The notes below the pieces were generated by a model. It searched no databases. It worked only from the letters and a program-made list of their open reading frames with translations, and had not been told where the DNA came from. Source: Octopus vulgaris (lineage: Eukaryota). Taken from it: a DNA stretch of 64,000 nucleotides. Positions 1 through 30,608 of the stretch are shown piece by piece; position 1 is the stretch's first letter; each line of letters begins with the position of its first letter. Made by a program: the position numbers and the translations under genes. Location of the stretch: NCBI GenBank assembly GCA_951406725.2, contig OX597815.1, forward strand, positions 183,272,001 through 183,336,000, in the 5' to 3' direction.

Positions 1-1112
1 CTGGGAGCTGCTCCAATGCTGATCAATTTTTCATTATAGCTGAACTGTTACATAAAATGCAGATAAAATTTCAGGTGTGGTGCCAAGTCGGGAATCAAAT
101 AGCCTTACAATTAATTTAGCTAAGAGCAAAAGTATAATAAGGCATAAAACAAACAAATCACATATCCCTTCAATCAAATGGCCCTGCTCAAAATTAAGGA
201 AACTCCATACAGTGTATCCAGTGCAAGTTCTGCACACATAAACAGTGCAGTAGAATCATGGGAAAATGAAAAAATCAAGTAGAGACTCTGTGTGGCACAT
301 ATGCAAGTAAGATAAGTTCTAAGTTTGTACAGAGGAGAAACTCCCTCAAATGACCAGCATCTCCTTAAAAATAGTAACCAAATTTTGTTATCCAGGCCAC
401 CATGTAAGCAGTGTATGACGAAGTATAGAAAGCATAATTGTTATAATAAGAAGAGGCCAGTCACATTATGTTAGTGAGTGTCTTTGCTGATAGCAAAGGT
501 GGTTTCCTTAGAATGAAAAGCAGATTGTATGATGTCAGTGTACATACAGCTAGGCTACATGGCAGTGAAACATGGACTGTCTCTAGAGATGACATGCAAA
601 AGGCTTGAAATAAAAGAATCAGGAGCTTCTGCTGGTTTGGTCATGTCAGTGTGCATGTATGACTGAGTGATTAAGAGAAAAATTGGGTATGAGAAGCATC
701 AGTTGAAATGCACAAGAAAGAAGACAGTGGTATCATGTGATGCATATGGATGAGGACAGTAGAAGTGCTTGTTTCTACTCCAGTTGTGGAGGGAAGATGT
801 AAAACAGGTAAACACTGAATCACATGGGAGAAAGTGGTGAGAAACAGTCTTCTGATATTGGGGCCCAAAGAGAAGATGAAAAAAGATCAAAATTTCTGGC
901 AGTTTTCTGCACTACAGAAGGCATGTGAAGCTAAGAAAAGTCTTGGCCACCATTACATACAGGCATGTCCTTTATGGATAGGCCTCACCAAGTCCTCACT
1001 CAGCTGAGATGTCCCTGTCTTGCAAAAACATACACACTAGTGCCACATAAAAGCACCTGTGCCACAACCACAAGAAATGAACATGCCAGTGGAAATTAAA
1101 AGCACCCATACC

Positions 1113-1334
1113 TATTTCTTTACTACCCACAAGGGGCTAAATACAGAGAGGACAAACAAGGACAGACACACAGATTAAGTCGATTATATTGACCACCAGT
1201 GCTTAACTGGTACTTAATTTATCGACCCCGAAAGGATGGAAGGCAAAGACGACCTCGGTGGAATTTGAACTCAGAACATAGCGGCAGACGAAATACCGCT
1301 AAGCATTTTCGCCCGGTGTGCTGCCAGCTCTGCC
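1113..1334 (-). mobile_element. Octopus-type tRNA-derived SINE (family B) with 12-bp TSD; copied in units 1-6 (also ~3925, 6312, 8708, 11517, 13904)
   Basis: B-box-like GAGTTCAAATTCC on minus strand; TSD agcacccatacc at 1101-1112 and 1335-1346; empty site in units 7-9 (e.g. ~16420). Confidence 0.88.
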
Positions 1335-1659
1335 AGCACCCATACCATTACCACATAAAATCACCTATGCCAGTGCCACATCAAAAATATACAAAACACT
1401 CGATAAAGTGGCTGTCATAAGGAAGAGCATCCAGCTCTAGAAACCGTAACAAAACAGACAATTGTAGCCTGCACAGCCCTCCAGACAGCCAGCTCCTGTC
1501 AAATGTCCCAACACATGACAAAATTGAGAACGCATTAACTGATAACAATACTGGTAAAAATGATGTATTATTGGCAACGTTACCACAAACACCTGCAAGA
1601 AAGTAAAGTTTTCAAATTTTAATCTATAAATGAACAGAAAATACTATGGCTTGGGCAAT

Positions 1660-2074
1660 AGGCGCAGGAGTGGCTGTGTGGTAGGTAGCTCGCTTACCTA
1701 CCACACAGCTCCGGGTTCGGTCCCACTGTGTGGTACCTGTAGCCTCGGGCCGAACAAAGCCTTGTGAGTGGATATGGTAGACGGAAACTGAAAGAAGCCC
1801 GTCGTATATATATATATGTATATATATGTATATATATATGTGTGTGTGTGTGTTTGTGTGTCTGTGTTTGTCTCCCCAACATCGCTTGACAACAGATGCT
1901 GGTGTTTTTACATCCCCGTTACTTAGCGGTTCGGCAAAAGAGACCGATAGGATAAGTACTAGGTTTATAAAGAATAAGTCCTGGGGTCCATTTGCTCGAC
2001 TAAAAAGGCGGTGTTCCAGCATGGCCGCAGTCAAATGACTGAAACAAGTAAAAGAGAAAGAGAGAAAAAAGAGA
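1660..2074 (+). mobile_element. Octopus-type tRNA-derived SINE (family A, internal TA/TG microsatellite)
   Basis: Head ggcgcaggagtggctgtgtggta..gggttcggtccc and tail gactgaaacaagtaaaagag; absent from sister monomers; same family at ~28965, 30425, 32650, 41394, 57300. Confidence 0.9.
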
Positions 2075-2099
2075 AAATTCAATGTAAAACGATACTTAC

Positions 2100-2147
2100 G
2101 AGTCTAGAGTTTCATCGATTCCTCTGTTTCTTTCTTCTCCACCATTT
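2100..2147 (-). CDS. 48-nt phase-2 micro-exon, (S)NGGEERNRGIDETLD(S), of a secreted repeat-protein gene
   Basis: Minus strand ggCTAATattttaatttctcTAG|AAATGG...GACTC|GTAAGTATC; the other two frames contain stops. Confidence 0.85.
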
Positions 2148-4515
2148 CTAGAGAAATTAAAATATTAGCCATTATTATATTTTTATTCCATATTTATATC
2201 ATACTATAAAACTAACCAACTATATTTTACTACTGAAAATTAAACAGGTCCAACTTTTTTTACTCAAAATGAAAATGGTAGACATTCAATCAGGAGTTGC
2301 AACGAACAGTGTGGATAATTTGAGTTTGGTGAAAGGAGAGAAGTAATCAGAAGAAGATTGCTTTTTATTGGGAATAAATTGCTCAACTGATTAGGAAGTG
2401 AGTTATCCTGGATGAAATGCAGTTCTATTTTGTGCCAGAAACAAGCACAACTGATGCTATCCGCCTGGTAGTGCAACTTCATCAGAGGGATTTAGCCATT
2501 AATAAACCATTGTAACTGGCTTTTTTAGAGCTGGAGAAAGACATAGAAGAATAAACCGCTGTACTTGGCTGTAGGGGACCTCCAGAAATTCTTGGACAAA
2601 GGCCATAACTCCCTTATCGAGAGGTCGCTGTAGAAGCTATGGATTTATAGGTGGTAGTGAGAACACAGGAAGACATGTGCAAGCATGATGTCAATAAGGT
2701 GAAGGTCTACAATGTGTACAAGACTGAATATAGTGTACGAGTAACCATTCACCAAAGACAGGCCCTAGCCCCTCTCCTTTTTTACATTGTCCTAAACGAC
2801 ATAATAGAGGAATTTAAGACTGGCTAGTTCTGGGAGCTGCTCCAATGCTGATCAATTTTTCCTTATAGCTGAACTGTTACGTAAAATTCAGAGGAAATTT
2901 CAGGTGTGGTGCCAAGTCAGTAATCAAATAGCCAAGAGCAAAAGTCTAATAAGGCATAAAACAAACAAATCACATATCCATTCAGGCAAATAGCCCTGCA
3001 CAAAATTAAGGAAACTCCATACAGTGTATCCAGTGCAAGTTCTGCACACATAAACAGTGCAGTAGAATCATAGGAAAATTAAAAAATCAAGTAGAGACTC
3101 TTTGTGGCAGATATGCAAGTAAGATAAATTCTAAGTTTGTACAGAGGAGAAACTCCCCCGAATGACCAGCATCTCCTTAAAAATAGTAACCAAATTTTGT
3201 TATCCAGGCCACCATGTTAGCAGTGTATGACGAAGTATAAAAAGCATAATTGTTACAATAAGAAGAGGCTGGTCACATTATGTTAGTGAGTGTCTTTGCT
3301 GATAGCAAAGGTTGTTTCCTTAGAATGAAAAGCAGATTGTATGATGCCAGTGTACATACAGCTAGGCTACATGGCAGTGAAACATGGACTGTCTCTAGAG
3401 ATGACATGCAAAAGGCTTGAAATAAAAGAATCAGGAGCTTCTGCTGGATTGGTCATGTCAGTGTGCATGTATGACTGAGTGTTTAAAAGAAAAATTGGGT
3501 ATGAGAAGCATCAGTTGAAATGCGCGAGAAAGAAGACAGTGGTATCATGTGATGCATATGGATGAGGACAGTAGAAGTGCTTGTTTCTACTCCAGTTGTG
3601 GAGGGAAGATGTAAAACAGGTAAACACTGAAACACATGGGAGAAAGTAGTGAGAAACAGTCTTCTGACATTGGGGCCCAAAGAGAAGATGAAAAAAGATC
3701 AAAATTTCTGGCAGTTTTCTGCACTACAGAAGGCATGTTAAGCTAAGAAAAGTCTTGGCCACCATTACATACAGGCATGTCCTTTATGGATAGGCCTCAC
3801 CAAGTCCTCACTCAGCTGAGATGTCCCTGTCTTGCAAAAAGATACACAATAGTGCCACATAAAAGCACCTGTGCCACAACCACAAGAAATGAACATGCCA
3901 GTGGAAATTAAAAGCACCCATACCTATTTCTTTACTACCCACAAGGGGCTAAATACAGAGAGGACAAACAAGGACAGACACACAGATTAAGTCGATTATA
4001 TTGACCACCAGTGCTTAACTGGTACTTAATTTATCGACCCCGAAAGGATGGAAGGCAAAGACGACCTTGGTGGAATTTGAACTCAGAACATAGCGGCAGA
4101 CGAAATACCGCTAAGCATTTTCGCCCTGTGTGCTGCCAGCTCTGCCAGCACCCATACCATTACCACATAAAATCACCTATGCCAGTGCCACATCAGAAAT
4201 ATACAAAACACTCGATAAAGTGGCTGTCATAAGGAAGAGCATCCAGCTCTAGAAACCGTAACAAAACAGATAGTTGTAGCCTGCACAGCCCTCCAGACAG
4301 CCAGCTCCTGTCAAATGTTACAACACATGACAAAATTGAGAACACACATTAACTGATAACAATACTGGTAAAAATGATGTATTATTGGCAACTTTACCAC
4401 AAATACCTGCAAGAAAGTAATGTTTTCAAATTTTAATCTATAAATGAACAGAAAATACTATGGCTTGGGCAATGTATAATAAACCCAAATAAATTCAATG
4501 AAAAACGATACTTAC

Positions 4516-4563
4516 GAGTCTAGAGTTTCATCGATTCCTCTGTTTCTTTCTTCTTCCCCATTT
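4516..4563 (-). CDS. 48-nt phase-2 micro-exon, (S)NGEEERNRGIDETLD(S)
   Basis: Acceptor ttttaatttcgtTAG, donor GTAAGTATC, open frame. Confidence 0.85.
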
Positions 4564-6898
4564 CTAACGAAATTAAAATATTAGCCATTATTATATTTTT
4601 ATTCCATATTTATTTCCTACTATGAAACTAACCAACTATATTTTACTACTGAAATTTAAACAGGTCCAATATTTTTTACTCAAAATGAAAATGGTGGACA
4701 TTCAATCAGGAGTTGCAACGAACAGTGTGGATAATTTGAGTTTGGTGAAAGGAGAGAAGTAATCAGAAGAGGATTGCTTTTTATTGGGAATAAATTGCTC
4801 AACTCATTAGAAAGTGAGTTATCCTGGATGAGATGCAGTTCTATTTTGTGCCAGAAACAAGCACAACTGATGCTATCCACCTGGTAATGCAACTTCATCA
4901 GAAGGATTTAGCCATTGTAACTGGCTTTTGTAGAGCTGGAGAAAGACATAGAATAAACCGCTATACTTGGCTGTAGGGGACCTCCAGAAATTCTTGGACA
5001 AAGGCCATAACTTCCTTATCTAGAGGTCGCTGTAGAAGCTATGGATTGATGAGTGGTGGTGAGAACACTGGAAGACATGTGCAAGCATGATGTCAATAAG
5101 GTGAAGGTCTACAATGAGTACAAGTAAGCATTCATCACAGACAGGTCCTAGCCCCTCTTCTTTTTAACATAGTCCTAAACGACATAATAGAGGAATTTGA
5201 GACTGGCTAGTTCTGGGAGCTGCTCCAATGCTGATCAATTTTTCATTATAGCTGAACTGTTACATAAAATGCAGATAAAATTTCAGGTGTGGTGCCAAGT
5301 CAGTAATCAAATAGCCTTACAATTAATTTAGCTAAGAGCAAATGTATAATAAGGCATAAAATAAACAAATCACATATCCCTTCAATCAAATGGCCCTGCT
5401 CAAAATTAAGGAAACTCCATACAGTGTATCCAGTGCAAGTTCTGCACACATGAACAGTGCAGTAGTATCATGGGAAAATGAAAAAATCAAGGAGAGACTC
5501 TGTGTGGCAGATATGCAAGTAAGATAAATTCTAAGTTTGTACAGAGGAGAAACTCCCCCAAATGACCAGCATCTCCTTAAAAATAGTAACCAAATTTTGT
5601 TATCTAGGCCACTATGTTAGCAGTGTACGACAAAGTATAGAAAGCATAATTGTTACAATAAGAAGAGGCCAGTCACATTACGTTAGTAAGCAAAGGGCTG
5701 CTTCCTTAGAGTGAAAAGCAGATTATACGATCCCAGTGTACATACAGCTAGGCTACATGGCAGTGAAACATGGACTGTCACTAGAGAAGACATGCAAAAG
5801 GCTTGAAACAAAAGAAGCCAGGAGCTTTTGCTGGATTGGTCATGTCAGTGTGCATGTATGACTGAGAGTTTAAGAGAAAAATTGAGTATGAGAAGCATCA
5901 GTTGAAATGCACAAGAAAGAAGACAGTGGTATCATGTGATGCATATGGATGAGGACAGTAGAAGTGCTTGTTTCTACTCCAGTTGTGGAGGGAAGATGTA
6001 AAACAGGTAAACACTGAAATACATGGGAGAAAGTGGTAAGAAACAGTCTTCTGACATTGGGGCCCAAAGAGAAGATGAAAAAAGATCAAAATTTCTGGCA
6101 GTTTTCTGCACTACAGAAGGCATGTTAAGCTAAGAAAAGTCTTGGCCACCATTACATACAGGCATGTCCTTTATGGATAGGCCTCACCAAGTCCTCACTC
6201 AGCTGAGATGTCCCTGTCTTGCAAAAACATACACAATAGTGCCACATAAAAGCACCTGTGCCACAACCACGAGAAACAAACATGCCAGTGCCAATTAAAA
6301 GCACCCATACCTATTTCTTTACTACCCACAAGGGGCTAAACACAGAGAGGACAAACAAGGACAGACACACAGATTAAGTCGATTACATTGACCACCAGTG
6401 CGTAACTGGTACTTAATTTATCGACCCCGAAAGGATGAAAGGCAAAGTCAACATCGGTGGAATTTGAACTCAGAATGTAGCGGCAGACGAAATACCGCTA
6501 AGCATTTTGCCCAGCATGCTGCCAGCTCTGCCAGCACCCATACCATTACCACATAAAAGCACCTATGCCAGTGCCACATCAGAAATATACAAAACACTCG
6601 ATAAAGTGGCTGTCATAAGGAAGAGCATCCAGCTCTAGAAACCATAACAAAACAGACAATTGTAGCCTTCACAGCCCTCCAGACAGCCAGCTCCTGTCAA
6701 ATGTTCCAACACATGACAAAATTGAGAACACATTAACTGATAACAATACTGGTAAAAATGATGTATTATTGGCAACTTTACCACAAACACCTGCAAGAAA
6801 TAATGTTTTCAAATTTTAATCTATAAATGAACAGAAAATACTATGGCTTGGGCAATGTATAATAAACCCAAATAAATTCAATGAAAAACGATACTTAC

Positions 6899-6946
6899 GA
6901 GTCTAGAGTTTCATCGATTCCTCTGTTTCTTTCTTCTTCCCCATTT
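6899..6946 (-). CDS. 48-nt phase-2 micro-exon, (S)NGEEERNRGIDETLD(S)
   Basis: Acceptor ttttaatttcttTAG, donor GTAAGTATC. Confidence 0.85.
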
Positions 6947-9254
6947 CTAAAGAAATTAAAATATTAGCCATTATTATATTTTTATTCCATATTTATTTCC
7001 TACTATGAAACTAACCAACTATATTTTACTACTGAAATTTAAACAGGTCCAATATTTTTTACTCAAAATGAAAATGGTGAAAAATCAATCGGAAGTTGCA
7101 ACGAACAGTGTGGATAATTTGAGTTTGGTGAAAGGAGAGAAGTAATCAGAAGAGGATCGCTTTTTATTGGGAATAAATTGCTCAACTGATTAGGAAGTGA
7201 GTTATCCTGGATGAGATGCAGTTCTATTTTGTGCCAGAAACAAGCACAACTGATGCTATCCTCCTGGTAATGCAACTTCATGAGAAGGATTTAGCCATTG
7301 TAACTGGCTTTTGTAGAGCTGGAGAAAGACATAGAATAAACAGCTATACTTGGCTGTAGGGGACCTCCAGAAATTCTTGGACAAAGGCCATAACTTCCTT
7401 ATCTAGAGGTCGCTGTAGAAGCTATGGGTTGATATGTGGTGGTGAGAACACTGGAAGACATGTGCAAGCATGATGTCAATAAGGTGAAGGTCTACAATGA
7501 GTACAAGTAAGCATTCATCACAGACAGGTCCTAGCCACTCTTCTTTTTAACATAGTCCTAAACGACATAATAGAGGAATTTAAGACTGGCTAGTTCTGGG
7601 AGCTGCTCCAATGCTGATCAATTTTTCATTATAGCTGAACTGTTACATAAAATGCAGATAAAATTTCAGGTGTGGTGCCAAGTCGGGAATCAAATAGCCT
7701 TACAATTAATTTAGCTAAGAGCAAAAGTATAATAAGGCATAAAACAAACAAATCACATATCCCTTCAATCAAATGGCCCTGCTCAAAATTAAGGAAACTC
7801 CATACAGTGTATCCAGTGCAAGTTCTGCACACATAAACAGTGCAGTAGAATCATAGGAAAATGAAAAAATCAAGTAGAGACTCTGTGTGGCACATATGCA
7901 AGTAAGATAAGTTCTAAGTTTGTACAGAGGAGAAACTCCCTCAAATGACCAGCATCTCCTTAAAAATAGTAACCAAATTTTGTTATCCAGGCCACCATGT
8001 AAGCAGTGTATGACGAAGTATAGAAAGCATAATTGTTATAATAAGAAGAGGCCAGTCACATTATGTTAGTGAGTGTCTTTGCTGATAGCAAAGGTGGTTT
8101 CCTTAGAATGAAAAGCAGATTGTATGATGTCAGTGTACATACAGCTAGGCTACATGGCAGTGAAACATGGACTGTCTCTAGAGATGACATGCAAAAGGCT
8201 TGAAATAAAAGAATCAGGAGCTTCTGCTGGTTTGGTCATGTCAGTGTGCATGTATGACTGAGTGATTAAGAGAAAAATTGGGTATGAGAAGCATCAGTTG
8301 AAATGCACAAGAAAGAAGACAGTGGTATCATGTGATGCATATGGATGAGGACAGTAGAAGTGCTTGTTTCTACTCCAGTTGTGGAGGGAAGATGTAAAAC
8401 AGGTAAACACTGAATCACATGGGAGAAAGTGGTGAGAAACAGTCTTCTGATATTGGGGCCCAAAGAGAAGATGAAAAAAGATCAAAATTTCTGGCAGTTT
8501 TCTGCACTACAGAAGGCATGTGAAGCTAAGAAAAGTCTTGGCCACCATTACATACAGGCATGTCCTTTATGGATAGGCCTCACCAAGTCCTCACTCAGCT
8601 GAGATGTCCCTGTCTTGCAAAAACATACACACTAGTGCCACATAAAAGCACCTGTGCCACAACCACAAGAAATGAACATGCCAGTGGAAATTAAAAGCAC
8701 CCATACCTATTTCTTTACTACCCACAAGGGGCTAAATACAGAGAGGACAAACAAGGACAGACACACAGATTAAGTCGATTATATTGACCACCAGTGCTTA
8801 ACTGGTACTTAATTTATCGACCCCGAAAGGATGGAAGGCAAAGACGACCTCGGTGGAATTTGAACTCAGAACATAGCGGCAGACGAAATACCGCTAAGCA
8901 TTTTCGCCCGGTGTGCTGCCAGCTCTGCCAGCACCCATACCATTACCACATAAAATCACCTATGCCAGTGCCACATCAAAAATATACAAAACACTCGATA
9001 AAGTGGCTGTCATAAGGAAGAGCATCCAGCTCTAGAAACCGTAACAAAACAGACAATTGTAGCCTGCACAGCCCTCCAGACAGCCAGCTCCTGTCAAATG
9101 TCCCAACACATGACAAAATTGAGAACGCATTAACTGATAACAATACTGGTAAAAATGATGTATTATTGGCAACGTTACCACAAACACCTGCAAGAAAGTA
9201 AAGTTTTCAAATTTTAATCTATAAATGAACAGAAAATACTATGGCTTGGGCAAT

Positions 9255-9669
9255 AGGCGCAGGAGTGGCTGTGTGGTAGGTAGCTCGCTTACCAACCACA
9301 CAGTTCCGGGTTCGGTCCCACTGTGTGGTACCTGTAGCCTCGGGCCGAACAAAGCCTTGTGAGTGGATATGGTAGACGGAAACTGAAAGAAGCCCGTCGT
9401 ATATATATATATGTATATATATGTATATATATATGTGTGTGTGTGTGTTTGTGTGTCTGTGTTTGTCTCCCCAACATCGCTTGACAACAGATGCTGGTGT
9501 TTTTACATCCCCGTTACTTAGCGGTTCGGCAAAAGAGACCGATAGGATAAGTACTAGGTTTATAAAGAATAAGTCCTGGGGTCCATTTGCTCGACTAAAA
9601 AGGCGGTGTTCCAGCATGGCCGCAGTCAAATGACTGAAACAAGTAAAAGAGAAAGAGAGAAAAAAGAGA
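9255..9669 (+). mobile_element. SINE family A, higher-order-repeat copy of 1660-2074
   Basis: Nearly identical to 1660-2074 at offset 7595. Confidence 0.9.
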
Positions 9670-9694
9670 AAATTCAATGTAAAACGATACTTAC

Positions 9695-9742
9695 GAGTCT
9701 AGAGTTTCATCGATTCCTCTGTTTCTTTCTTCTCCACCATTT
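9695..9742 (-). CDS. 48-nt phase-2 micro-exon, (S)NGGEERNRGIDETLD(S)
   Basis: Identical to 2100-2147 including splice sites. Confidence 0.85.
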
Positions 9743-12107: not shown

Positions 12108-12155
12108 GAGTCTAGAGTTTCATCGATTCCTCTGTTTCTTTCTTCTTCCCCATTT
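12108..12155 (-). CDS. 48-nt phase-2 micro-exon, (S)NGEEERNRGIDETLD(S)
   Basis: Identical to 4516-4563 including splice sites. Confidence 0.85.
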
Positions 12156-14492
12156 CTAACGAAATTAAAATATTAGCCATTATTATATTTTTATTCCATA
12201 TTTATTTCCTACTATGAAACTAACCAACTATATTTTACTACTGAAATTTAAACAGGTCCAATATTTTTTACTCAAAATGAAAATGGTGGACATTCAATCA
12301 GGAGTTGCAACGAACAGTGTGGATAATTTGAGTTTGGTGAAAGGAGAGAAGTAATCAGAAGAGGATTGCTTTTTATTGGGAATAAATTGCTCAACTGATT
12401 AGAAAGTGAGTTATCCTGGATGAGATGCAGTTCTATTTTGTGCCAGAAACAAGCACAACTGATGCTATCCACCTGGTAATGCAACTTCATCAGAAGGATT
12501 TAGCCATTGTAACTGGCTTTTGTAGAGCTGGAGAAAGACATAGAATAAACCGCTATACTTGGCTGTAGGGGACCTCCAGAAATTCTTGGACAAAGGCCAT
12601 AACTTCCTTATCTAGAGGTCGCTGTAGAAGCTATGGATTGATGAGTGGTGGTGAGAACACTGGAAGACATGTGCAAGCATGATGTCAATAAGGTGAAGGT
12701 CTACAATGAGTACAAGTAAGCATTCATCACAGACAGGTCCTAGCCCCTCTTCTTTTTAACATAGTCCTAAACGACATAATAGAGGAATTTGAGACTGGCT
12801 AGTTCTGGGAGCTGCTCCAATGCTGATCAATTTTTCATTATAGCTGAACTGTTACATAAAATGCAGATAAAATTTCAGGTGTGGTGCCAAGTCAGTAATC
12901 AAATAGCCTTACAATTAATTTAGCTAAGAGCAAATGTATAATAAGGCATAAAATAAACAAATCACATATCCCTTCAATCAAATGGCCCTGCTCAAAATTA
13001 AGGAAACTCCATACAGTGTATCCAGTGCAAGTTCTGCACACATGAACAGTGCAGTAGTATCATGGGAAAATGAAAAAATCAAGGAGAGACTCTGTGTGGC
13101 AGATATGCAAGTAAGATAAATTCTAAGTTTGTACAGAGGAGAAACTCCCCCAAATGACCAGCATCTCCTTAAAAATAGTAACCAAATTTTGTTATCTAGG
13201 CCACTATGTTAGCAGTGTACGACAAAGTATAGAAAGCATAATTGTTACAATAAGAAGAGGCCAGTCACATTATGTTAGTAAGCAAAGGGCTGCTTCCTTA
13301 GAGTGAAAAGCAGATTATACGATCCCAGTGTACATACAGCTAGGCTACATGGCAGTGAAACATGGACTGTCACTAGAGAAGACATGCAAAAGGCTTGAAA
13401 CAAAAGAAGCCAGGAGCTTTTGCTGGATTGGTCATGTCAGTGTGCATGTATGACTGAGAGTTTAAGAGAAAAATTGAGTATGAGAAGCATCAGTTGAAAT
13501 GCACAAGAAAGAAGACAGTGGTATCATGTGATGCATATGGATGAGGACAGTAGAAGTGCTTGTTTCTACTCCAGTTGTGGAGGGAAGATGTAAAACAGGT
13601 AAACACTGAAATACATGGGAGAAAGTGGTAAGAAACAGTCTTCTGACATTGGGGCCCAAAGAGAAGATGAAAAAAGATCAAAATTTCTGGCAGTTTTCTG
13701 CACTACAGAAGGCATGTTAAGCTAAGAAAAGTCTTGGCCACCATTACATACAGGCATGTCCTTTATGGATAGGCCTCACCAAGTCCTCACTCAGCTGAGA
13801 TGTCCCTGTCTTGCAAAAACATACACAATAGTGCCACATAAAAGCACCTGTGCCACAACCACGAGAAACAAACATGCCAGTGCCAATTAAAAGCACCCAT
13901 ACCTATTTCTTTACTACCCACAAGGGGCTAAACACAGAGAGGACAAACAAGGACAGACACACAGATTAAGTCGATTACATTGACCACCAGTGCGTAACTG
14001 GTACTTAATTTATCGACCCCGAAAGGATGAAAGGCAAAGTCAACATCGGTGGAATTTGAACTCAGAATGTAGCGGCAGACGAAATACCGCTAAGCATTTT
14101 GCCCAGCATGCTGCCAGCTCTGCCAGCACCCATACCATTACCACATAAAATCACCTATGTCAGTGCCACATCAGAAATATACAAAACACTCGATAAAGTG
14201 GCTGTCATAAGGAAGAGCATCCAGCTCTAGAAACCGTAACAAAACAGACAATTGTAGCCTGCACAGCCCTCCAGACAGCCAGCTCCTGTCAAACGTTCCA
14301 ACACATGACAAAATTGAGAACACACATTAACTGATAACAATACTGGTAAAAATGATGTATTATTGGCAACTTTACCACAAACACCTGCAAGAAATAATGT
14401 TTTCAAATTTTAATCTATAAATGAACAGAAAATACTATGGCTTGGGCAATGTATAATAAACCCAAATAAATTCAATGAAAAATGATACTTAC

Positions 14493-14540
14493 GAGTCTAG
14501 AGTTTCATCGATTCCTCTGTTTCTTTCTTCTCCACCATTT
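14493..14540 (-). CDS. 48-nt phase-2 micro-exon, (S)NGGEERNRGIDETLD(S)
   Basis: Acceptor ttttaatttctcTAG, donor GTAAGTATC. Confidence 0.85.
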
Positions 14541-16787
14541 CTAGAGAAATTAAAATATTAGCCATTATTATATTTTTATTCCATATTTATTTCATACTAT
14601 AAAACTAACCAACTATATTTTACTACTGAAATTTAAACAGGTCCAACTTTTTTTACTCAAAATGAAAATGGTAAACATTCAATCAGGAGTTGCAACGAAC
14701 AGTGTGAATAATTTGAGCGTGGTGAAGAGGGAGATCATTGAGGAAAGAAATGCTTTAACTGTTGTAGCAAAGAAAGAAGATATGTCTGATTAGAAACAAC
14801 AGTTAAGATTAAGAAGTAGTGAGAAACTTTTCATCATGCCATATGATTTAAAGATCTTCGACTTTCACCATCCCAACTGGTTACTGCAACAGAAATAATA
14901 TTCTTAGAACTACAGTATCTGTAATCAGACTATGTTTTTTCAAGTCAGCAATTTTCTATCATGGGAAGAAGGAAGATTAAATGTTTTCAACAAAATAAAT
15001 GTAAACCCAATTTATTCAATGAAAAGTGTTGCTTACGTTGCTTCAGCATCTTGATTTCTTTTCTCTTGACTTTCTCTAGCATTTATCCTAAAAGTAAAAC
15101 ATTGATTATAACATTTTTTGTTTTTCATTCTAGAAATATTTCACAGAAATAAACAACATTTTGGAAGTTAAATATAATCAGGAAAGAACTGCTTTTTTAT
15201 TGGGAATAAATAACCCAGTTGATTAGGAAGAGAGTTAGCCTGGAGAAGATGCAGTTCTGATTCATACCAGGAAGAAACACAACCAGTGCTATCCTCCTGG
15301 TAAGGCAACTACAAGAGAAGTATTTAGCCCTGAATAAAACGTTGCATATGGCTTTTGTAGAGCTGGAGAAAGACATCCAAATAGAAACCTCTATCCTTGG
15401 CTATTATGGGCCTAACTCTAACCCTAATAAGGAGTAAATCAGACAAATCACACATCCCATCAGGGAGATGGCCCTGCTCAAAATGTTGGAAAGGTATTGG
15501 TAGAAACTCCATATGGTGTATCCAGTGGAAGTTCTGCACACACAAGGAGTGCAGTTGTATCATGGGAAGATGAACAGAGAAAGTAGACACTCTGTGTGAC
15601 ATATATGCAGGTAAAATATATACTAAGTATGTACAGCAGAGAGACTCCCTCAAATGACCAGGGTATCCTTAGAAGTAATAGCCAATTTCTGTTATCCAGG
15701 CCACCATTTCAGCAGTGAAGGATGAAGTTCTGAAGGCATAAATGTTAGAATAAGAATAGGTTGGTCAAAGTTAAGGGTGCCGGTATCGTCTGGGAGTAAA
15801 AGGCCTCTCTCTTAGAGTGAAAGGCAGATTGCATGATGCCAGTGTACATACAATTAGGCTACATGGCAGTGAAACATGGACTATCACTAGAAAGGACAAG
15901 CAAAAGGCTTGAAACAAAAGAAGCCAGGAGCTTGTGCTGGATTGGTCATGTCAGTATACATGTATGACAGAGTGTAAAGAATCTAAGAGAAAAACTGGGT
16001 ATAAGATACATCAATTGAAAAGCACAAGAAAGAAGACAGTAGTATCATATGATACATATGGATGGGGATAGTTGCATAAACAAGTGCTTGTTTCTACACC
16101 AATTATGGAGGGTGCTGTAAAATGGGTAGACCCATGAAGACGTAGGAAAAAGTGGTGAGAAACAGTCTTCTCACATTGGACTTTACAAGGAAGATAGAAA
16201 AGGACCGAGATTTCTGGCAATTTTTTGCACTTCAGAAGACACATCAAGCTAAGAAAAATCTTGGCCACCCATACATACAGTCATGCCCTTTATGGCTATG
16301 ACCCACCACATCCACTCTCAGCTGAGATGTCCCTGTCTTTCAAGCATATACACAATGGTTCCACATAAAAGTGCCTGTGCCACAACCACAAGAAATGAAC
16401 ATGCCAGTGTCAATTACAAGCACCCATGCTGTTGCCACATAAAAGCACCTGTGTCAGTGCCACATCAAGAATATATGAGACACTCTAGAATGTGGTTGCC
16501 ATTGAGAAAGGCATCCAGCTATAGAACCCATAAGGAAACGGACAATTGGAGCCTGGACAGTCCTCCAGCCAGCCAGCTCCTGTCAAATGTTTCAGCACAT
16601 GAAAAAATTGAGAGCAGACGTTAAAAGATAACAATGGTAATGATCATAATGAATTATTTGAAATTTTACCACAAACTCCAACAAAAATGTAGTGCTTTCA
16701 AATTTTTAAGCATAAATGAATAGAAAATGCTATGGTTTGGGCAAAATATAATAAATTCAATTAAATTCACCAAACAATAATACTTAC

Positions 16788-16835
16788 GAGTCTAGAGTTT
16801 CATCAGTTCCTCTGTTTCTTTCTTCTCTACCATTT
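16788..16835 (-). CDS. 48-nt phase-2 micro-exon, (T)NGREERNRGTDETLD(S)
   Basis: Acceptor ttttaaattgtgTAG, donor GTAAGTATT; frame kept although the unit is diverged. Confidence 0.85.
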
Positions 16836-18224
16836 CTACACAATTTAAAATATTAGTCATTATTAAATTTTTAGTCCATATTTATTTCATACTATAAAAC
16901 TAACCAACTATATTTTACTACTGAAATTTAAACAGGTTCAACGTTGTTGCTCAAAATGAAAATGGTAAGACATTCAATCAGGAGTTGCAATGAACAGTGT
17001 GAATAATTTGAGTTTGGTGAGAAGGGAGATCATTGAAGAAAGAAATGCTATAATTGTTGCAGCAAAGAAAGATGAAATGTCTGATAGAGACAAAAGATTA
17101 GGAATGACATGATTTAAAGATCTTCAACTTTCACCATCCCACCTGGTTACTGCAACAGAAATAATATTCTTAGAACTACAGTATCTGTAGTCAATCTATG
17201 TTTTTTCAAGTCAGCAATTTTCTATCATGGGAAGAAAGAAGATTAAAGGTTTTCAACAAAATGAATTTAAACCCAATTTATTCAATGAAAAGTGTTGCTT
17301 ACGTTGCTTCAGCATCTTGATTTCTTTTCTCTTGACTTTCTCTAACATTTGTCCTAAAAGTAAAACACGGATTATAACATTTTTTATTTTTTATTCTAGA
17401 ATTATTTCACAGAAATAAACAACATTTTGGAAGTTAAAAGTAGTCAGAAAATGATTGCTTTTTATTGGGAATAAATTGCTCAACTGGTTAGGAAGAGAGT
17501 TAGACTGGATGAGATGCAGTTCTGTTTTGTGCCATAAAGAAACACAACTAGTGCTGTTGTAGAGCTGAAGAAAGACTTTCAAAAGTAAACTTCTATCCTT
17601 GGCTACTGTGGGCCTAAGAAAGCCTTGGACAGAAGCCATTGCTTCTTCATCTAGTAATCAATGCAGAAGGTATGCATTGATGAGTGGTCTGTGAGAGCAG
17701 TACAAGCCATGTACAAGTATGCTGTCAATAAGTCAAAGGTCCTCAATGAGTATAGCAATGAATTAAGTGTACAAGTAAGCATTCACCAAAGTTCTTAGCT
17801 CATTCTTTTTTTTAATCATTGTCCTGCAGGACATAACAGAGGAAATTAAGACTCGTTGCCCTTGCAGACACCTGAAATGTTGATCAATTTTTTCTTATAG
17901 CTGAACTGTTAGATGAAATTGAGAGGAAATTTCAGGTATGGCACCAGGTCAGAAATCATATAAACTTAGAATTAATTTAGCTAAGAGCAAAATTCTGATG
18001 AGTTGTAAGACAGACAAATCACACATACCTTCAGGGAGATAGCCCTGCTCAAAATATAGAAAAGTTGTTGATAGAAACTCCATATGGTGTATCCAGTAGA
18101 AGTTCTGCACACACAAAAGTGCAGTAGTATCGTGGAAAGAGAAACAGAGAAAGTAAACACTCTGTGTGGCAGATATATGGGTAAAATATATAGTATGTAT
18201 GTCCAGAAGAAAGACTCCCTCAAA

Positions 18225-18370
18225 TAATCAGGAATCTATTGACAATATTTTGAAATGCATGCCATGCCTCTCTTTCTAGATCACCCATCACATTTTCAAG
18301 ATTTACTGACCTCAGCATTTTCCTTACTTGTGATCCAGTAAATATACCACCCTTAACTTTTAAACCCAAT
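18225..18370 (-). mobile_element. DNA transposase fragment (resembles Chapaev3-type)
   Basis: KVKGGIFTGSQVRKML...EREAWHAFQNIVNRFL resembles the KxKEGIFVGPQIR...AWxxFxxVVxxFL motif (recalled, not searched). Confidence 0.5.
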
Positions 18371-19840
18371 TTATACAATGAAAAGTGTTGCTTACGTTGC
18401 TTCAGTATCTTGATTTCTTTTCTTTTGACTGTCTCTAACATTTGTCCTAAAAGTAAATCATGGATTATAGTATTTTTTCTTTACACAGAAATAAACAACA
18501 TTTTGGAAGTTAAATGTAATCGAAAGGAAGTGCTTTTTGGGGGAATAAACTACTCAACTGATTACGAAGAGAGTTAGCCTGGATGAGATGCAGTGCTGTT
18601 TTGTGCCAGAAACACAACTCGTATTATCCTCCTGGTAAGGCAACTGCAACACAAGTATTTTAGCCCTGAATAAACCATTGTATCTGGCTGTTATAGAACT
18701 GGAGAAAAGCTTTCAAATAGAAACCTCTATCCTTGTCTATTGTGGGCCTAAGAAAGCCTTGGACAGAGGCCATTGCCCCTTCATCTAGTGGTCAATGCAG
18801 AACGGATGGATTGATGAGTTGTTTGAGAGCAGTACATGCATGCTCTCAATAAGGTTAAATTATGCAATGAGTAAACGAATGAATTTCCTGTACAAGTAAG
18901 CATTCACAAATTTCAAGTTCTTAGCCTACTCTTTTTTAAATCATAGTAATAAAGGACATAACAGAGGAATTTCAGACCGGCTGCCCTTGTGAGCTCCTCT
19001 AATACTGAACAAAAGGCTTGAAAGAAATACATTATCCATACACGGTCTGCTGGGTGGGTATTGTCAGTGTGCACGTATGACAGAGTGTAAAGAATCTAAG
19101 AGAAAAATTGGGTATAAGAGGCATCAGTTGTAGTACACAGAAGAGAAAACTGTTGTTATATGTGATGCATACAGATGAAAACAGCTGCATAAAGAAGTGT
19201 TTGTTTCTACTCCAATTGTGAGTGAAGACTTGGCAAAAGTGGTGAGAAACGTTCTTCAGACATCGGGGTTTACAGAGATGATAAAAAAGGACCAAGATTC
19301 TTGGCAGTTTTTTTGCACTTCCAAAGACACATCAAGCTAAGGAAAGTTTTGGCCACTCATACATACAGACATGCCCTTTACAGCTATGACCCACTACATC
19401 CCTGTCTTGCAAGCACATGCACAATGGTGCCCCATAAACACACCTGTTCCAGAACCACTAGAAATGACCATGCCAGTGCCAAAAGCACCCATGCCATTAT
19501 CACATAAAAACACCTGTGCCTGTGCCACATCAAGAATATATGAGACATTCTATAAAATGGTTGGCATAAGAAAGAGCATCCAGCTACAGAACCCATAGGG
19601 AAACAGACAATTGGAGCCTGGACAGACCTCCAGCTGGCCAGCTCCCGTCAAATGTTCTAGCACATGACAAAATTGAGAATGGACATTAACTACTAATAAT
19701 GATGACTTATTTGCAATTTTACCACAAACACCAACAAAAATGTAGAGTCTTCAAATTTTAATGTATAAATGAACTGAAAATACTATGGTTTGGGCAAAAT
19801 ATATTAAACCCAAATAAATTCACTAAACAATAATACTTAC

Positions 19841-19888
19841 GTTTCTAGAGTTTCTCTAGTTCCTCTGTTTCTTTCTTCTCTACCATTT
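19841..19888 (-). CDS. 48-nt phase-2 micro-exon, (G)NGREERNRGTRETLE(T)
   Basis: Acceptor ttttaaattctgTAG, donor GTAAGTATT. Confidence 0.85.
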
Positions 19889-22543
19889 CTACAGAATTTA
19901 AAATATTAGCCATTATTATATTTTTAGTCCATATTTATTTCATACTAGAAAACAAAGTAAGTATAGTTTAGTACTGAAATTCAAACAGGTCCAACTTTGT
20001 TGCTAAAAATGAAAATGGTGAAAATTCAATCAGGAGTTGCAACGAACAGTGTGAATAATTTGAGTTTGGTGAGAAGGGAGATCATCGAGGAAAGAAAGAT
20101 GAAATGTCTGATAGAGACAAAATTAGGAATTTGTGGGAAGCTTCTATTCAGTAGAACAATATTGGAGTTGTATAAATGCAGGTTAGGCATGATAAAGATG
20201 ACATAAAATATGAAGATTTCCAGCTCTCACTATCCCATCTGGTTACTCCAGGAGAAATAATATTCTTAGAACTACAATATCTGTAGTCAGACTTTGTTTT
20301 TTTCAAGTCAGCAATGTAAGGAATTTTCAATCATGGGAAGAAAGAAGCTTAAACATTTTCAACAAAATAATTTTAAAGCGAATTTATTCAATGAAACGTG
20401 TTGCTTCAGCATCTTGATTTCTTTTTTTTTTTTTTTTTTTTGACTTTCTCTAACATTTGTCCTAAAAGTAAAACATGGATTATAATACTTTTTGTTTCTC
20501 ATTCTAGAATTATTTCACAGAGATGAACAACATTTTGAAAATTAAATATAGTCAGAAAATGATTGCTTTTTATTGGGAATAAATTGCTCAACTGATTAGG
20601 AAGAGAGTTAGACTGGATGAGATGCAATTCTGTATTGTGCCATAAAGAAACACAACTAATGCTATCCTCCTGATAAGGCAACTGCAGGAGAAGTATGTAG
20701 CTCTGAATAAACCATTGTATCTGGCTGTTATTGAACTGGAGAAAAACTTTCAAATAGAAACCTCTATCCTTGTCTATTGTGGGCCTAAGAAAGCCTTAGA
20801 CAGAGGCCATTGCCCCTTCATCTAGTGGTCAATGCGGAACGGATGGATTGATGAGTTGTTTGAGAGCAGTACAAGCATGATCTCAATAAGGTGATGCAAT
20901 GAGTATACCAATGAAATTAGTGTACAACGAAGTGTTCACCAAAGACAAGACCCACCCCATCTTCTTTTTCTCATAGTCCTCAAGGACATAGCAGAGGAAT
21001 TTAAGTCTGGTGCCTTTGGCAACACCTCAAATGCTGATCAATTCTTTCTTATAGCTGAACTGTTAGATGAAATCAAGAGGAAATTTCAGGTGTGGCACCA
21101 GGTCAGAAATCAAATAGCCTTATCATTAATTTAGCTAAGAGCAAAATTTTGATGAGGTGTACACAGACAAATCACAAATCTCTTCAGGGAGATAGCCCTG
21201 CTCAAAATGTACAAAAGGTGTTGGTAGAAACTTCATACAGTGTATCCAGTTTAAGTTCTGTACACATAAATAGTGCAGTAGTATTATGGGAAAATGAACA
21301 ATTCAAGTAGACACTCTGTGTGGCACATATGCAGGTAAAATCATTACAAAGTGTGTGCAGCAGAGAGACTCCCTCAAATGACTGACGGAGCCCCAGAAAT
21401 AGTAATCAAATTCTGTTATCCAGGCCACCATGTTAGCAGTGGAGAACAAATTTTGGAAGCATAATTGTTAGAATAAGAACAGGCTGATAAAATTTAAGGG
21501 TGCCAATATCTTCTGGTAGTAAATTGCCTTTCCCTTAGAGTGAAAAGTAGATTGAATGTTGCTTATGTACATACAACTAGGCTATATAGCAGTATTTTCT
21601 GGTAGTAAAGGGTGTCTCCCTTGGAGTGAAAAGCAGATTGTTTGATGCCTGTGTACACACAGCTAGGCTACATGGCAGTGAAACATGGAGTGTCACTAGA
21701 GATGACATGCAAAGGGCTTGAAACAAATGTAGCCAATGGGTTCTGCTGGATGGGTAATGTTAATGTGCATGTATGACAGAGTGTAAAGGATTTAAGAAAA
21801 AAATTGGGTATAAGAGGCATCAGTTGAAATGCACAAGTGAGAAGACAATGGTATTGTGTGATGCATATGGATGAGGACAACTGCATAAAGAAGTGTTTGT
21901 TTCTACTGTAAGACAGGTAGACCCCAGAAGACATGGGAAAAAGTGGTGAGAAATGGTTTTCAGACATTGGGCTTTATAGAGAAAATAGTAAAGAACCAAG
22001 ATTTCTGGCAGTTTTCTGCCCTTCAGAAGACACGTGAAGCTAAGTAAAGTCTTGGCCATCCATACATACAGGCATGCCCTTTACAGCTATGCCTCACCAT
22101 GTCCTCTCTCTGCTGAGACATCCCTGTCTTGCAAGTATATGACCGACCATGCCAGTGTCAATAGATATGACCGACCATGCCAGTGTCAATTACAAGCCCC
22201 CATGCTGTTTCCACATAAAGAATATATGAGACACTCTATAAAGTGGTTGCCACTGAGAAAGGCATCCAGCTATAGAAACTATAACAAAACAGACAATTGG
22301 AGCCTGGACAGACCTCCAGCTGGCCAGCTCCTGTCAAACATTCCAGCAAATGATAAAACTGAGAGCAGACATTAAATGATGATAATAATGTGATGATCAT
22401 GATGGATTATTTGTTATTTTTTTTCCACAAATCCCCACAAGAATGGAGAGTTTTCAAATTTTAATGTAGAAATGAACAGAAAATACTATGGTCAGGGCAA
22501 AATATAATAAATCCAAATAAATTCACTGAAAAATAATACTTAC

Positions 22544-22588
22544 CCTCCTTGAGTTCCACCAGATCCTCTGTTTCTATCTCCACCATTT
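22544..22588 (-). CDS. 45-nt phase-2 micro-exon, NGGDRNRGSGGTQG(G); most diverged, 5'-most repeat exon
   Basis: Acceptor ttttacattttaTAG, donor GTAAGTATT; exactly one codon shorter than its siblings, so frame is preserved. Confidence 0.8.
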
Positions 22589-22999
22589 CTATAAAATGTA
22601 AAATATTATATTGCATTTTTATATTATTATATTATATATATTATTTATATATATATTATTTTTTTCCATATAATATTTTTATTCCATATTCATTTCGTAA
22701 CAGTTATCAAGCAAAAGTGAGAGGATTCTGAAGATGATTAAAAAGCTATCGTCTGCTCGCGATTCGTAAAGTAATACTTCGGTTATTTCCGGTTAATCTC
22801 GCTTTTAAACGCCGGTTGTTAAATACGTATGTGTGTGTGTGTGTACGTCTGTGAGTGTATGTGAAAGAAAGGAAATCACACATGTCTATATACATATATA
22901 TATACACGCACACACGTGTATATAGAAATATGTGTCACACGTATATATACATACACACACATATATACACAAACGTACATTAATGTATAACATATATGT

Positions 23000-24116: not shown

Positions 24117-25500
24117 CTAATCGCACGTTGTTAGATACTCGGTCGTTGTACCTTCGTGCATGCTCTCCAGCTGGCCTCTATCTGCACAAATTGACAATTT
24201 CAGATTACGTTTGTTAGCCAAAGATGCCATAGTTTTAATTTCTCTAATAAGCTCATTGTTTTCCAAAAGCATCTCTTGAATATCCCTAGTAGTGTATAAT
24301 TTTGTTGCAGGAAATCTATTATTTCTGATATTAGTCATTTAATATCATCAATAAAATAAACTTGAACATATTTAGGAATATTTTCATCTGTATTATACAA
24401 TGAACTTATTCTATGCTATACTTGACTTTGTATTTTGAAAACTGACATGAATCCCAGTAGAGATATTAATTCACCAAGGATGTCATTGAAAATAATTCAT
24501 TATATTTTTTGATAATTTTTGGAATCCAGATTTTCCCCCAGCATTAGTGTATTTAAAGGTTCAAGAGGTCTTTCAAACAAATTTAACCTTACCATTTGAA
24601 CAAAATAGTCCCTTAGTTCTTATTTTTATTGTCCTAAAAATTTCGTTGCGTCTTGCAACCTTTTCAATAGTTTATTGAAAAGGTTGCAAGACGCAACGAA
24701 AATTTTAGGAAAATAAAAATAAGAAAAATGTGGAAATTTTACCGGTGAGTGTGTTACATTATAAGGCTCAAAAAGAAAATGACTCTCCCCAGACACAACA
24801 GAATATGCTTCAACACACGAACTCATATAAAGAATCTTGCAAACCAAATCCAGAAACGAAATATAATCCCTTAGGTTCATCCTTAAATAGTTGTGCACAA
24901 CAATGCTTACAAACAACTGACCCTGTTCCTAAATTTGATAGATTATCATAATTTTTAGTTGGATCATAGTCAAACGCTGCATTTGTAAATGATATAACAG
25001 AAGTACCTAGTTCAGCATATCTTGGTCTTTGCTCCATAGTCTGAGAATTTCCTGTCACAAAGTGTGAAATTCTAGTTTCCTCTCTTATTTCTTGTGCCAA
25101 TCTGTGTTTTCTTCTCTAATTTCATTCTTTCTTTGAACTGAGAGTTTTCCTCGTCTTTTTAGATACTCCCCATTTCTTGCTCTTTGAATTTCTCTCACAT
25201 TTTCACTCATTTCATTTGGTTCTTGGCGTTTTTTTTGCTGGGGCATTTAAAATTACCCTTCTATCGTTATTTATTACGCTTATAATATTATTGTTGTTGT
25301 TTAAGCTATTAGTTGCATCATTTAAGTTTTGGTCGGTTCTTACTTTTTGAGTAAGAATTTCTTGATCCGCCATGCGCTGAGAATTTCTAGCCACAATGTG
25401 CAAAATTCTAATTTCTTCTCTTATTATTTCTAGTATCGAATTTTCTCTCAACACCTTGGTGAGCCAACCTGTGTTCTCCTCCAATTTCATTCCGTCTTTG
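24117..25500 (-). mobile_element. Decayed Helitron Rep/Helicase N-terminal region
   Basis: Collinear fragments VCKHCCAQLFKDEPKGL / FCSNGKVK / PLEPL / FSMTSL / IQEMLLENNELIREIKT..LSICADR match the CxxCxAxxFxxE..CCxxGKV..PEPL..FQMTS pattern of animal Helitrons; contains stops and frameshifts. Confidence 0.7.
24617..24725. repeat. Fold-back palindrome, 53-bp arms, 3-nt loop
   Basis: 24617-24669 is the reverse complement of 24673-24725 with 2 mismatches. Confidence 0.95.
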
Positions 25501-25937: not shown

Positions 25938-25947
25938 TATGTGTGTG

Positions 25948-30565: not shown

Positions 30566-30608
<43 letters not shown>

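What the first reader, a model, noticed from the sequence alone, without database searches (positions are those of the whole stretch)
1..22620. Protein repeat number grows by duplicating LINE-padded exon cassettes of ~2.4 kb
Each 48-nt exon is ~2% of its unit. Most of the remainder is one antisense, decayed RTE LINE (LHGSETW motif; same family as the dispersed copies at 52608-55360 and 62400-63090). One genomic unit equals one peptide repeat, so unequal crossover changes protein length in frame. Inference: an intronic LINE supplied the homology that seeded or sustains expansion, making this a macrosatellite that is also a coding VNTR.
Basis: partly seen in the sequence, partly recalled or inferred. 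Interest (0 to 1): 0.75.

Follow-up and report, generated by a model that had tools for sequence, protein, structure and literature searches.

The report
Octopus mucin-like gene's expanding micro-exon array
A 35-kilobase DNA repeat in an octopus mucin-like gene copies tiny in-frame exon-like pieces that likely lengthen the front end of a secreted protein (11 recent copies here, 3 in the gene model of a sister species); the old jumping-gene relic in each copy is one insertion carried along, likely not the trigger, and this design is already known from flatworm and human genes.

Summary
The array is real and larger than reported: window -12.8 kb to +22.7 kb. All are phase 2-2. They lie between a likely signal-peptide exon (38235-38162) and the first Cys-rich domain of a ~235-kb SCO-spondin/mucin-like VWD gene. 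A public O. vulgaris model includes 14 A + 2 B. The O. sinensis model has 3 young repeats against 11 here. The LINE fills ~72% of a young unit and is one insertion (shared ends; one clade, 100/100). But the array ends and the unit junction are LINE-free, the copy aged 0.15 changes/site before the surviving copies split, and a second exon array in the same gene is 1.3% LINE. So it is likely a passenger, not the seed. The latest growth came in 7.6-kb, three-exon steps (higher-order repeat, 0.08-0.16% apart). Splicing is not shown by RNA here. Same design as SmPoMuc, LPA KIV-2 and NBPF triplets: a new member of a known kind.

The parts
1..22699 (.). Exon-bearing tandem array, in-window part; continues left of the window to about -12766 (G000:C2:183259234)
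2100..2147 (-). A exon, 48 nt, phase 2-2, 'G' allele (NGGEERNRGIDETLD)
   Evidence: in model P0006
4516..4563 (-). A exon, 48 nt, 'E' allele
6899..6946 (-). A exon, 48 nt, 'E' allele
9695..9742 (-). A exon, 48 nt, 'G' allele
12108..12155 (-). A exon, 48 nt, 'E' allele
14493..14540 (-). A exon, 48 nt, 'G' allele; border of young and old parts
15037..15087 (-). B exon, 51 nt, phase 2-2, intact splice sites
16788..16835 (-). A exon, 48 nt, old copy
17303..17353 (-). B exon, 51 nt, intact
18396..18446 (-). B exon, 51 nt, intact splice sites but not in model P0006
19841..19888 (-). A exon, 48 nt, old copy
20395..20462 (-). Broken B copy: donor lost, poly-A expansion (approximate limits)
22544..22588 (-). 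First A exon (A'), 45 nt, most diverged
6899..14492 (.). One complete 7.6-kb trimer (higher-order repeat); two more lie at -696..6898 and -8290..-697
12378..14330 (+). Example of the single, 5'-truncated LINE relic (antisense to the gene). Other copies start at 2370, 4786, 7169, 9965, 15202, 17467, 18541, 20575 with the same 5' junction
13897..14127 (.). ~230-bp high-copy SINE-like insertion inside the LINE of the young units, absent from old units
9255..9669 (.). ~410-bp repeat insertion that marks one monomer of the trimer (also 1660-2074)
14592..14913 (.). LINE-free, array-specific spacer that holds the junction of the old [A-LINE-B] unit
12345..12355 (.). Junction of the ~440-bp deletion that removed exon B and made the young monomer; about 25 bp outside the LINE
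   Evidence: spanned by a contig of run X8
38162..38235 (-). Likely first coding exon: predicted signal peptide, phase-2 donor AAA|GTAAGC, TATA-like box ~70 nt upstream, single copy
24921..25037 (-). First exon of public model P0006; lies in a dispersed repeat, no signal peptide, likely an annotation patch
52608..55360 (-). Dispersed, longer copy of the same LINE family; separate insertion
61451..61746 (-). Last coding exon (cystine-knot-like) of the upstream paralog

Best explanation
This is a tandem array of symmetric phase-2 micro-exon cassettes inside an octopus SCO-spondin/mucin-like VWD gene, likely spliced in to add an acidic, cysteine-free 15-17-residue repeat between a predicted signal peptide and the first Cys-rich domain, and likely grown by repeated unequal exchange that carried one old intronic LINE along as a passenger. 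Order of events (inferred): (1) a micro-exon duplicated into A and B with no LINE involved; (2) one 5'-truncated LINE inserted antisense in the A-to-B intron and decayed as a single copy; (3) the [A-LINE-B] block was duplicated with a junction in unique DNA, giving units now 15-25% apart; (4) a ~440-bp deletion removed B and made the 2.4-kb A-only monomer, copied into four types 3-5% apart that are mosaics of each other; (5) a 7.6-kb trimer was triplicated very recently, three exons per step. Shown: anatomy, frame, single LINE origin, junction positions, trimer. Inferred: splicing, the signal-peptide link, unequal crossover as the means, and function. Likely function: a weakly constrained, disordered, net-negative spacer or pro-segment (273 aa; 82 D/E, 41 R/K) whose length is tolerated or tunes packing and swelling of the secreted polymer.
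For: Frame: the phase-2 frame is open in 8 of 8 distinct A/B alleles; the other frames in 0 and 3 of 8. Lengths 45, 48, 51 and the downstream 36-nt exon are all 3n; signal exon + 17 cassettes + 36-nt exon + first Cys exon join without a stop; null rate for 3n-and-open AG..GT intervals is 461 of 2948. Public model CAI9718652.1 holds 14 A + 2 B in this frame and maps to the locus exon by exon. O. sinensis XP_036356616.1 holds B-A-B plus 3 young repeats; O. bimaculoides XP_014786686.1 shows a frame-shifted trace of one A exon. 13 of 18 homolog N-termini inspected by eye, and the upstream paralog, have a signal peptide just ahead of the Cys domain. LINE: same 5' truncation in all 14 junctions found by the motif scan and same 3' junction in 11 of 14 (3 replaced by the marker insertion in the stretch shown); 9 of 9 array rows form one clade against 21 dispersed rows, 100/100, stem 0.15. 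Ends and junction LINE-free. Second array in the gene: 787 of 59301 bases LINE. Trimer copies differ by 6, 12 and 12 substitutions per 7.6 kb, each with private changes.
Against: No transcript or peptide evidence for the micro-exons was obtained. The three public models all have patched 5' ends without a signal peptide, so they are at least partly ab initio. Exon changes are mostly nonsynonymous (0-1 synonymous against 1-5 nonsynonymous codons per pair), so no purifying selection on the peptide is seen. 2 of 5 B copies are broken. The species difference rests on gene models, and either assembly could have collapsed or inflated near-identical units. A long stem on the LINE tree could also come from homogenisation among copies. 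An outer LINE copy could have been deleted after seeding.
Confidence: 0.7

Rival explanations
1. One reading: homology between intronic LINE copies seeded the first duplication.
For: LINE makes up ~72% of the young unit; monomer types switch ancestry inside the LINE; a partial B+LINE duplication at 17.3-18.4 kb has one break inside the LINE.
Against: One insertion only; array ends and unit junction in unique DNA; stem of 0.15 changes/site before the copies split; A/B duplication and the monomer-forming deletion are LINE-free; second array in the gene grew without it.
Confidence: 0.07
2. The cassettes are mostly skipped pseudo-exons: an intronic macrosatellite that gene predictors chained because the pieces happen to keep the frame.
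For: Models are patched at their 5' ends; no sign of purifying selection on the peptide; 2 of 5 B copies broken; homologs lack any such segment; skipping all cassettes also keeps the frame.
Against: Four exon lengths all 3n and phase 2-2 against a 15.6% null (the types are related, so not independent); two species' models chain the same 48/51-nt exons across 2-3 kb introns in the same frame; an A-like exon persists in O. bimaculoides; exons are 73-79% purine, as expected of splice enhancers (enhancer reading is from my own knowledge).
Confidence: 0.15
3. The coding array is real, but the count of 11 young units is an assembly artefact (or the sister species' 3 is a collapse), so number may be nearly fixed.
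For: Trimer copies are only 0.08-0.16% apart; the comparison is between gene models, not reads.
Against: All three trimer copies have private substitutions, more than two joined haplotypes would give; the four monomer types are 3-5% apart, too far for collapse into G-E-G without trace, so 5 against 3 would remain.
Confidence: 0.1
4. The array is an adaptive diversifier like schistosome micro-exon genes: cassettes are included combinatorially, or released as peptides at basic sites, to vary a surface or mucus protein.
For: Symmetric micro-exons behind a signal exon; the two models pick different subsets; changes are mainly nonsynonymous; B carries a KR pair and A an R-x-x-R-like stretch (sequence).
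Against: The 11 young repeats are only two alleles differing at one residue, so combinations change length more than sequence; too few changes to test positive selection; no expression data.
Confidence: 0.12

Closest known systems
Schistosoma mansoni polymorphic mucins, SmPoMuc (PMC2576457, passages read)
   Same: Signal peptide followed by a peptide VNTR in which each repeat is one small exon (27 bp) inside a ~1-kb genomic tandem unit, up to 20 units, under concerted evolution.
   Different: Here the unit is 2.4-2.8 kb and mostly LINE relic, the peptide is acidic rather than a glycosylated mucin repeat, there are two exon types and a trimer HOR, and the host is a giant VWD/cystine-knot gene; polymorphism and splicing are shown for SmPoMuc, not here.
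Human LPA kringle IV-2 coding CNV (PMC7613587, passages read)
   Same: Multi-kb exon-plus-intron unit (~5550 bp) with variable number and unit subtypes; the KIV introns hold large diverged L1 insertions.
   Different: Each KIV-2 unit encodes a folded kringle from two exons of 160 and 182 bp; here one 48-nt exon encodes a low-complexity peptide.
NBPF/Olduvai triplets (PMC9584774, passages read)
   Same: Exon-bearing monomers organised as a 3-mer higher-order repeat with far lower divergence between trimers than between monomers.
   Different: NBPF: monomers ~18% apart, HORs ~1.6%, two exons per monomer, up to 19 HORs; here 3-5%, 0.08-0.16%, one exon, three HORs.
Schistosome micro-exon genes, MEGs (PMC4350168, passages read)
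   Same: Very small symmetric exons in a secreted-protein gene, allowing in-frame skipping.
   Different: In MEGs such exons make up most of the coding region; here they are a small N-terminal part of a very large multidomain gene, and alternative splicing is untested.
Molluscan SCO-spondin-like / mucin-2-like VWD proteins (CAI9718652.1, XP_036356616.1, XP_014786686.1, XP_052821913.1)
   Same: Same host gene family: VWD, C8, TIL, LDLa domains, Thr-rich region, terminal cystine-knot-like exon.
   Different: The repeat was found only in the three Octopus models of this one gene; the paralogs have no such array.

Membership tests
Coding macrosatellite / exon-cassette VNTR (SmPoMuc, KIV-2 type) | Head-to-tail kb-scale units each holding an exon | tested here: met
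Coding macrosatellite / exon-cassette VNTR (SmPoMuc, KIV-2 type) | Exons symmetric, so number changes keep the frame | tested here: met
   all 45/48/51 nt, phase 2-2, no stop when joined
Coding macrosatellite / exon-cassette VNTR (SmPoMuc, KIV-2 type) | Exons are spliced into mRNA | tested here: inconclusive
   present in public models; no spliced RNA contig seen
Coding macrosatellite / exon-cassette VNTR (SmPoMuc, KIV-2 type) | Unit number varies | tested here: inconclusive
   11 against 3 young repeats between species' models; between individuals not testable with contigs
Higher-order repeat (Willard type) | n-mer copies much closer to each other than monomers within them | tested here: met
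   6-12 substitutions per 7.6 kb against 77-122 per monomer pair
Repeat-mediated (TE-TE NAHR) duplication | Two independent same-strand TE copies at the outer ends of the duplicated block | tested here: not met
   ends at -12766 and 22642-22699 are LINE-free; one clade
Repeat-mediated (TE-TE NAHR) duplication | Founding junction lies inside a chimeric TE | tested here: not met
   junction spacer 14592-14913 matches only the array, 13 of 13 hits
Non-LTR retrotransposon (LINE) | Reverse-transcriptase homology, 5' truncation, simple-repeat 3' tail | tested here: met
   RVT_1 above cut-off in 3 of 4 ORFs of close dispersed relatives; shared truncation and (TGA)n-like tail
RTE clade of LINEs | RT phylogeny groups with reference RTE elements | not testable with these tools
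SCO-spondin-like / gel-forming mucin-like VWD protein | VWD-C8-TIL assemblies | tested here: met
   3 VWD, 3 C8, 4 TIL in P0006
SCO-spondin-like / gel-forming mucin-like VWD protein | C-terminal cystine knot and Thr/Ser/Pro-rich region | tested here: inconclusive
   Thr-rich VNTR at -157..-161 kb; knot-like exon at -197 kb, 46% identical to the paralog's, whose Pfam Cys_knot hit is below cut-off; linkage by one transcript not shown
SCO-spondin-like / gel-forming mucin-like VWD protein | N-terminal signal peptide | tested here: inconclusive
   best of 4 candidate rows in 22.6-61.3 kb, phase-compatible, single copy; no signal-peptide predictor or RNA link
Micro-exon gene (MEG) | Most of the coding region is micro-exons | tested here: not met
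   about 260 of 2164 residues of P0006
Micro-exon gene (MEG) | Extensive alternative splicing of the cassettes | not testable with these tools
   needs reads from expressing tissue

The most novel reading that the evidence does not exclude
A charge-rich N-terminal module, new to Octopus and built from one micro-exon, is an actively changing length dial on a giant secreted mucus or matrix protein: 3 to 11 young copies between sister species, moving in three-exon steps, polymorphic among individuals and further varied by cassette skipping or basic-site cleavage, with effects on gel properties. The single decayed LINE then serves as a built-in neutral clock that dates every step.
Probability: 0.2. 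Interest if true: 0.6.

Novelty: new member of a known kind. Interest (0 to 1): 0.36.

Why it matters
It is a clean, datable case of a protein repeat born and expanded by whole-cassette duplication, with four nested age layers in 35 kb, and it lets one test a common claim (intronic TEs drive exon-array expansion) with an internal control; here the claim fails for the founding step. It also corrects the 5' end of a large octopus secreted-protein gene and gives a candidate length marker between Octopus species. It does not reveal a new mechanism.

Tried and rejected
RNA: no RNA holder was listed. Of the two candidate RNA runs laid on 11900-22600, X16 had no cover in the bins holding A exons and neither showed a listed spliced joint (only 15 of 522 joints were shown); this is no evidence either way. 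Depth: summed contig depth at listed young-unit sites was 57-167 in X4 against 43-60 for 8 old-unit contigs, and 3-40 against 4-9 in X8, which would fit fewer than 10 young units, but the tool states that this depth is no copy number, so it is not used as evidence. Homolog search of the repeat region among full-length proteins gave 1 low-complexity salmon hit, rejected. The HMMER search of 1.84 billion representatives gave 363 hits (150 listed), none with the repeat motifs. ESM Atlas: hits under 0.9, leads only. Proteomics: the one supplement of PMC10138644 held none of 6 terms (3 accessions, 3 peptides); the supplement of PMC11431876 could not be read and may bear on expression in skin mucus. 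Selection test: not informative (gapped p-distances understate exon divergence, so the ungapped counts are used). The model's first exon was rejected as a repeat-derived patch. The ATG-started frame of the A exon was rejected: it stops inside 13 of 14 copies. The 382-bp array in the gene was checked as a control but is non-coding, so not used. PMC13172734 passages read, not relevant. Earlier-finding look-ups by place, words and sequence were blank. No structure or complex was predicted: the segment is low-complexity and no binding is claimed.
Full report
Observation. Self-comparison of the window shows units of about 2.4-2.8 kb from base 1 to ~22.6 kb, with a 7595-bp period at 99.5% identity. 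Each carries, on the minus strand, a 48-nt AG..GTAAGT element. A genome search puts all 14 matches at this one locus, five of them left of the window. A profile of the exon and its flanks found 19 strong hits in 464 kb: 14 A copies and 5 copies of a second type, B. B is 51 nt, aligns to A with its flanking intron and has 5 of 5 genome matches here. Three B copies have intact splice sites; two are broken. The LINE is on the + strand, antisense to the exons, fills about 72% of a young unit and shows LHGSETW 12 times. Dispersed relatives hit Pfam RVT_1. The RTE label is recalled, not tested.

Host gene. A splice-site scan of the flanks showed Cys-rich exons on the minus strand on both sides. A protein search led to CAI9718652.1, named mucin-2-like, Octopus vulgaris, by its source. 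It maps to the locus exon by exon and holds 14 A and 2 B repeats, then a 36-nt exon and the Cys-rich EMI/EGF-like, VWD, C8, TIL and LDLa domains. A Thr-rich VNTR and a cystine-knot-like exon lie further on, at -157 to -161 kb and -197 kb. The model's first exon (25037-24921) sits in a dispersed repeat (18 matches) and has no signal peptide. A single-copy exon at 38235-38162 encodes a typical signal peptide, ends in phase 2 and has a TATA-like box upstream; it was the most hydrophobic of 4 candidate rows. Joined to the 17 intact cassettes, the 36-nt exon and the first Cys exon it reads 359 codons without a stop. The upstream paralog, which ends at 61451 in this window, has a phase-2 signal exon and no array before its first Cys exon. 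13 of 18 homolog N-termini inspected by eye also have the signal peptide just ahead of that domain. The repeat is therefore likely an Octopus-specific insert.

Coding status. The phase-2 frame is open in 8 of 8 distinct A/B alleles, the other two in 0 and 3 of 8. Random AG..GT intervals of 36-60 nt are 3n and open in that frame in 461 of 2948 cases; the exon types are related, so this is not a product of independent trials. Against: changes between copies are mostly nonsynonymous, 2 of 5 B copies are dead, and all three public models have patched 5' ends. No RNA or peptide support was obtained. Splicing is likely, not shown.

Copy number. The O. sinensis model XP_036356616.1 has B-A-B followed by 3 young repeats (G, E, G); this locus has 11 (G,E,G,E,E,G,E,E,G,E,G). 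The O. bimaculoides model XP_014786686.1 begins with what matches the shifted reading of one A exon and keeps the 36-nt exon. These are models, not reads. A contig of run X8 (organism D) spans the young-monomer junction, and run X4 (organism B) shows alleles absent from all 10 assembled young units (4 of 23 sites checked), so young-type units exist and differ in other animals.

History of the array. The 10 young units are one monomer plus three trimers. Monomer types differ by 77-122 substitutions; trimers by 6, 12 and 12 per 7.6 kb, each with private changes. One monomer type carries a ~410-bp marker insertion. Windowed distances show that the types are mosaics, with a switch near offset 950-1170, inside the LINE, as expected when 72% of the unit is LINE. 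The young monomer arose by a ~440-bp deletion that removed B; its junction lies ~25 bp outside the LINE. The old part keeps [A-LINE-B-spacer] units 15-25% apart.

Role of the LINE. All 14 5' junctions found by the motif scan share one truncation point, and the 3' junction is shared (the leftmost copy at -12.4 kb has a variant motif and was placed). Nine representative array copies form one clade against 21 dispersed copies, support 100/100, on a stem of 0.15 changes per site (six near-identical young copies were left out, the dispersed set is biased to best hits, the root is at the midpoint). So there was one insertion, which aged before the surviving copies split, unless homogenisation made the stem. 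Seeding by LINE-LINE exchange predicts LINEs at both outer ends and a junction inside a chimeric LINE. Instead homology ends ~130 bp past the last B (-12766) and 50-110 bp before the first A (22642-22699), and the spacer that holds the junction matches nothing but the array. The same gene has a second exon-bearing array of ~6.2-6.6-kb units at -89 to -148 kb with 787 of 59301 bases matching this LINE; other repeat families were not measured there. The LINE is best read as padding and as a neutral clock.

Likely function (inferred). The 17 cassettes give 273 residues with 82 acidic and 41 basic residues and no cysteine: a likely disordered, net-negative segment at the start of the mature protein. 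It is tolerated at varying length because every cassette is symmetric. From general knowledge of mucin packing by calcium and low pH, such a segment could alter storage or swelling; KR and R-x-x-R-like sites could allow its removal. Neither was tested. Passages of PMC11431876 report SCO-spondin-like and mucin proteins in octopus skin mucus but do not name this protein.

Comparison and novelty. SmPoMuc has the same plan: signal peptide, then a 27-bp exon in ~1-kb genomic repeats, up to 20 (PMC2576457, passages). LPA KIV-2 is a ~5550-bp coding CNV, and the KIV introns hold diverged L1 insertions (PMC7613587, passages). NBPF has exon-bearing 3-mer HORs (PMC9584774, passages). MEGs have small symmetric exons (PMC4350168, passages). 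Searches for six accessions and for cephalopod + microexon + mucin gave 0 papers; the listings (20 of 76, 8 of 8) showed nothing on this locus by title or abstract start. Unchecked notes of this scan report other micro-exon cassette arrays in the same genome, so the design seems recurrent there.

Verdict. Real feature, undescribed as far as these searches reach, new member of a known kind. Coding-VNTR reading likely (0.7 for the whole model); LINE-seeding unlikely (0.07). Interest 0.36.

Noticed in passing
G000:C2 ~183,123,600-183,182,900 (window -148 kb to -89 kb; L031-L035, L009-L010): Second tandem array in the same gene: ~6.2-6.6-kb units of four exons encoding a ~290-aa pair of Cys-flanked domains with no Pfam hit, about 8-9 copies at 88-98% identity; model P0006 includes fewer than two units and stops early.
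   Followed up: partly
window -160.8 kb to -156.8 kb (L036-L037): Exonic Thr-rich VNTR (~36-nt unit) with apparent frameshifts, possibly assembly errors.
   Followed up: partly
window -87.0 kb to about -79 kb (L008-L009): Intronic 382-bp satellite, 98-99% identical copies, no open frame.
   Followed up: partly
window +61.4 kb to +169.7 kb, +237 kb, and G000:C2:183,650,233: Cluster of at least three paralogous SCO-spondin/mucin-like genes on the same strand; only the most downstream has the micro-exon array.
   Followed up: partly
window 24900-25560: Dispersed repeat (18 genome matches) used as false first exon by the public model; lies inside a block flanked by a ~250-bp direct repeat (22698-22948 and 25692-25940).
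   Followed up: partly
L002:2916-2951 (window -17084..-17049): A 36-nt phase 2-2 exon just before the Cys domain, kept in all three Octopus models and faintly like the A repeat; a possible ancestor of A and B.
   Followed up: no
window 30219-35555: Complex locally duplicated and partly inverted segment (88-98% identity) in the intron between the signal exon and the array.
   Followed up: no
window 47000-48150 and 43000-43900 (minus strand): Decayed integrase-bearing LTR-type element and a DNA-transposase-like relic between the two genes (read from sequence, not tested).
   Followed up: no
window 14541-14740 and equivalents: The ~200 bp of intron upstream of A is more alike among old units (8-11%) than the LINE 3' end (14-18%): splice-control elements or local conversion.
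   Followed up: partly
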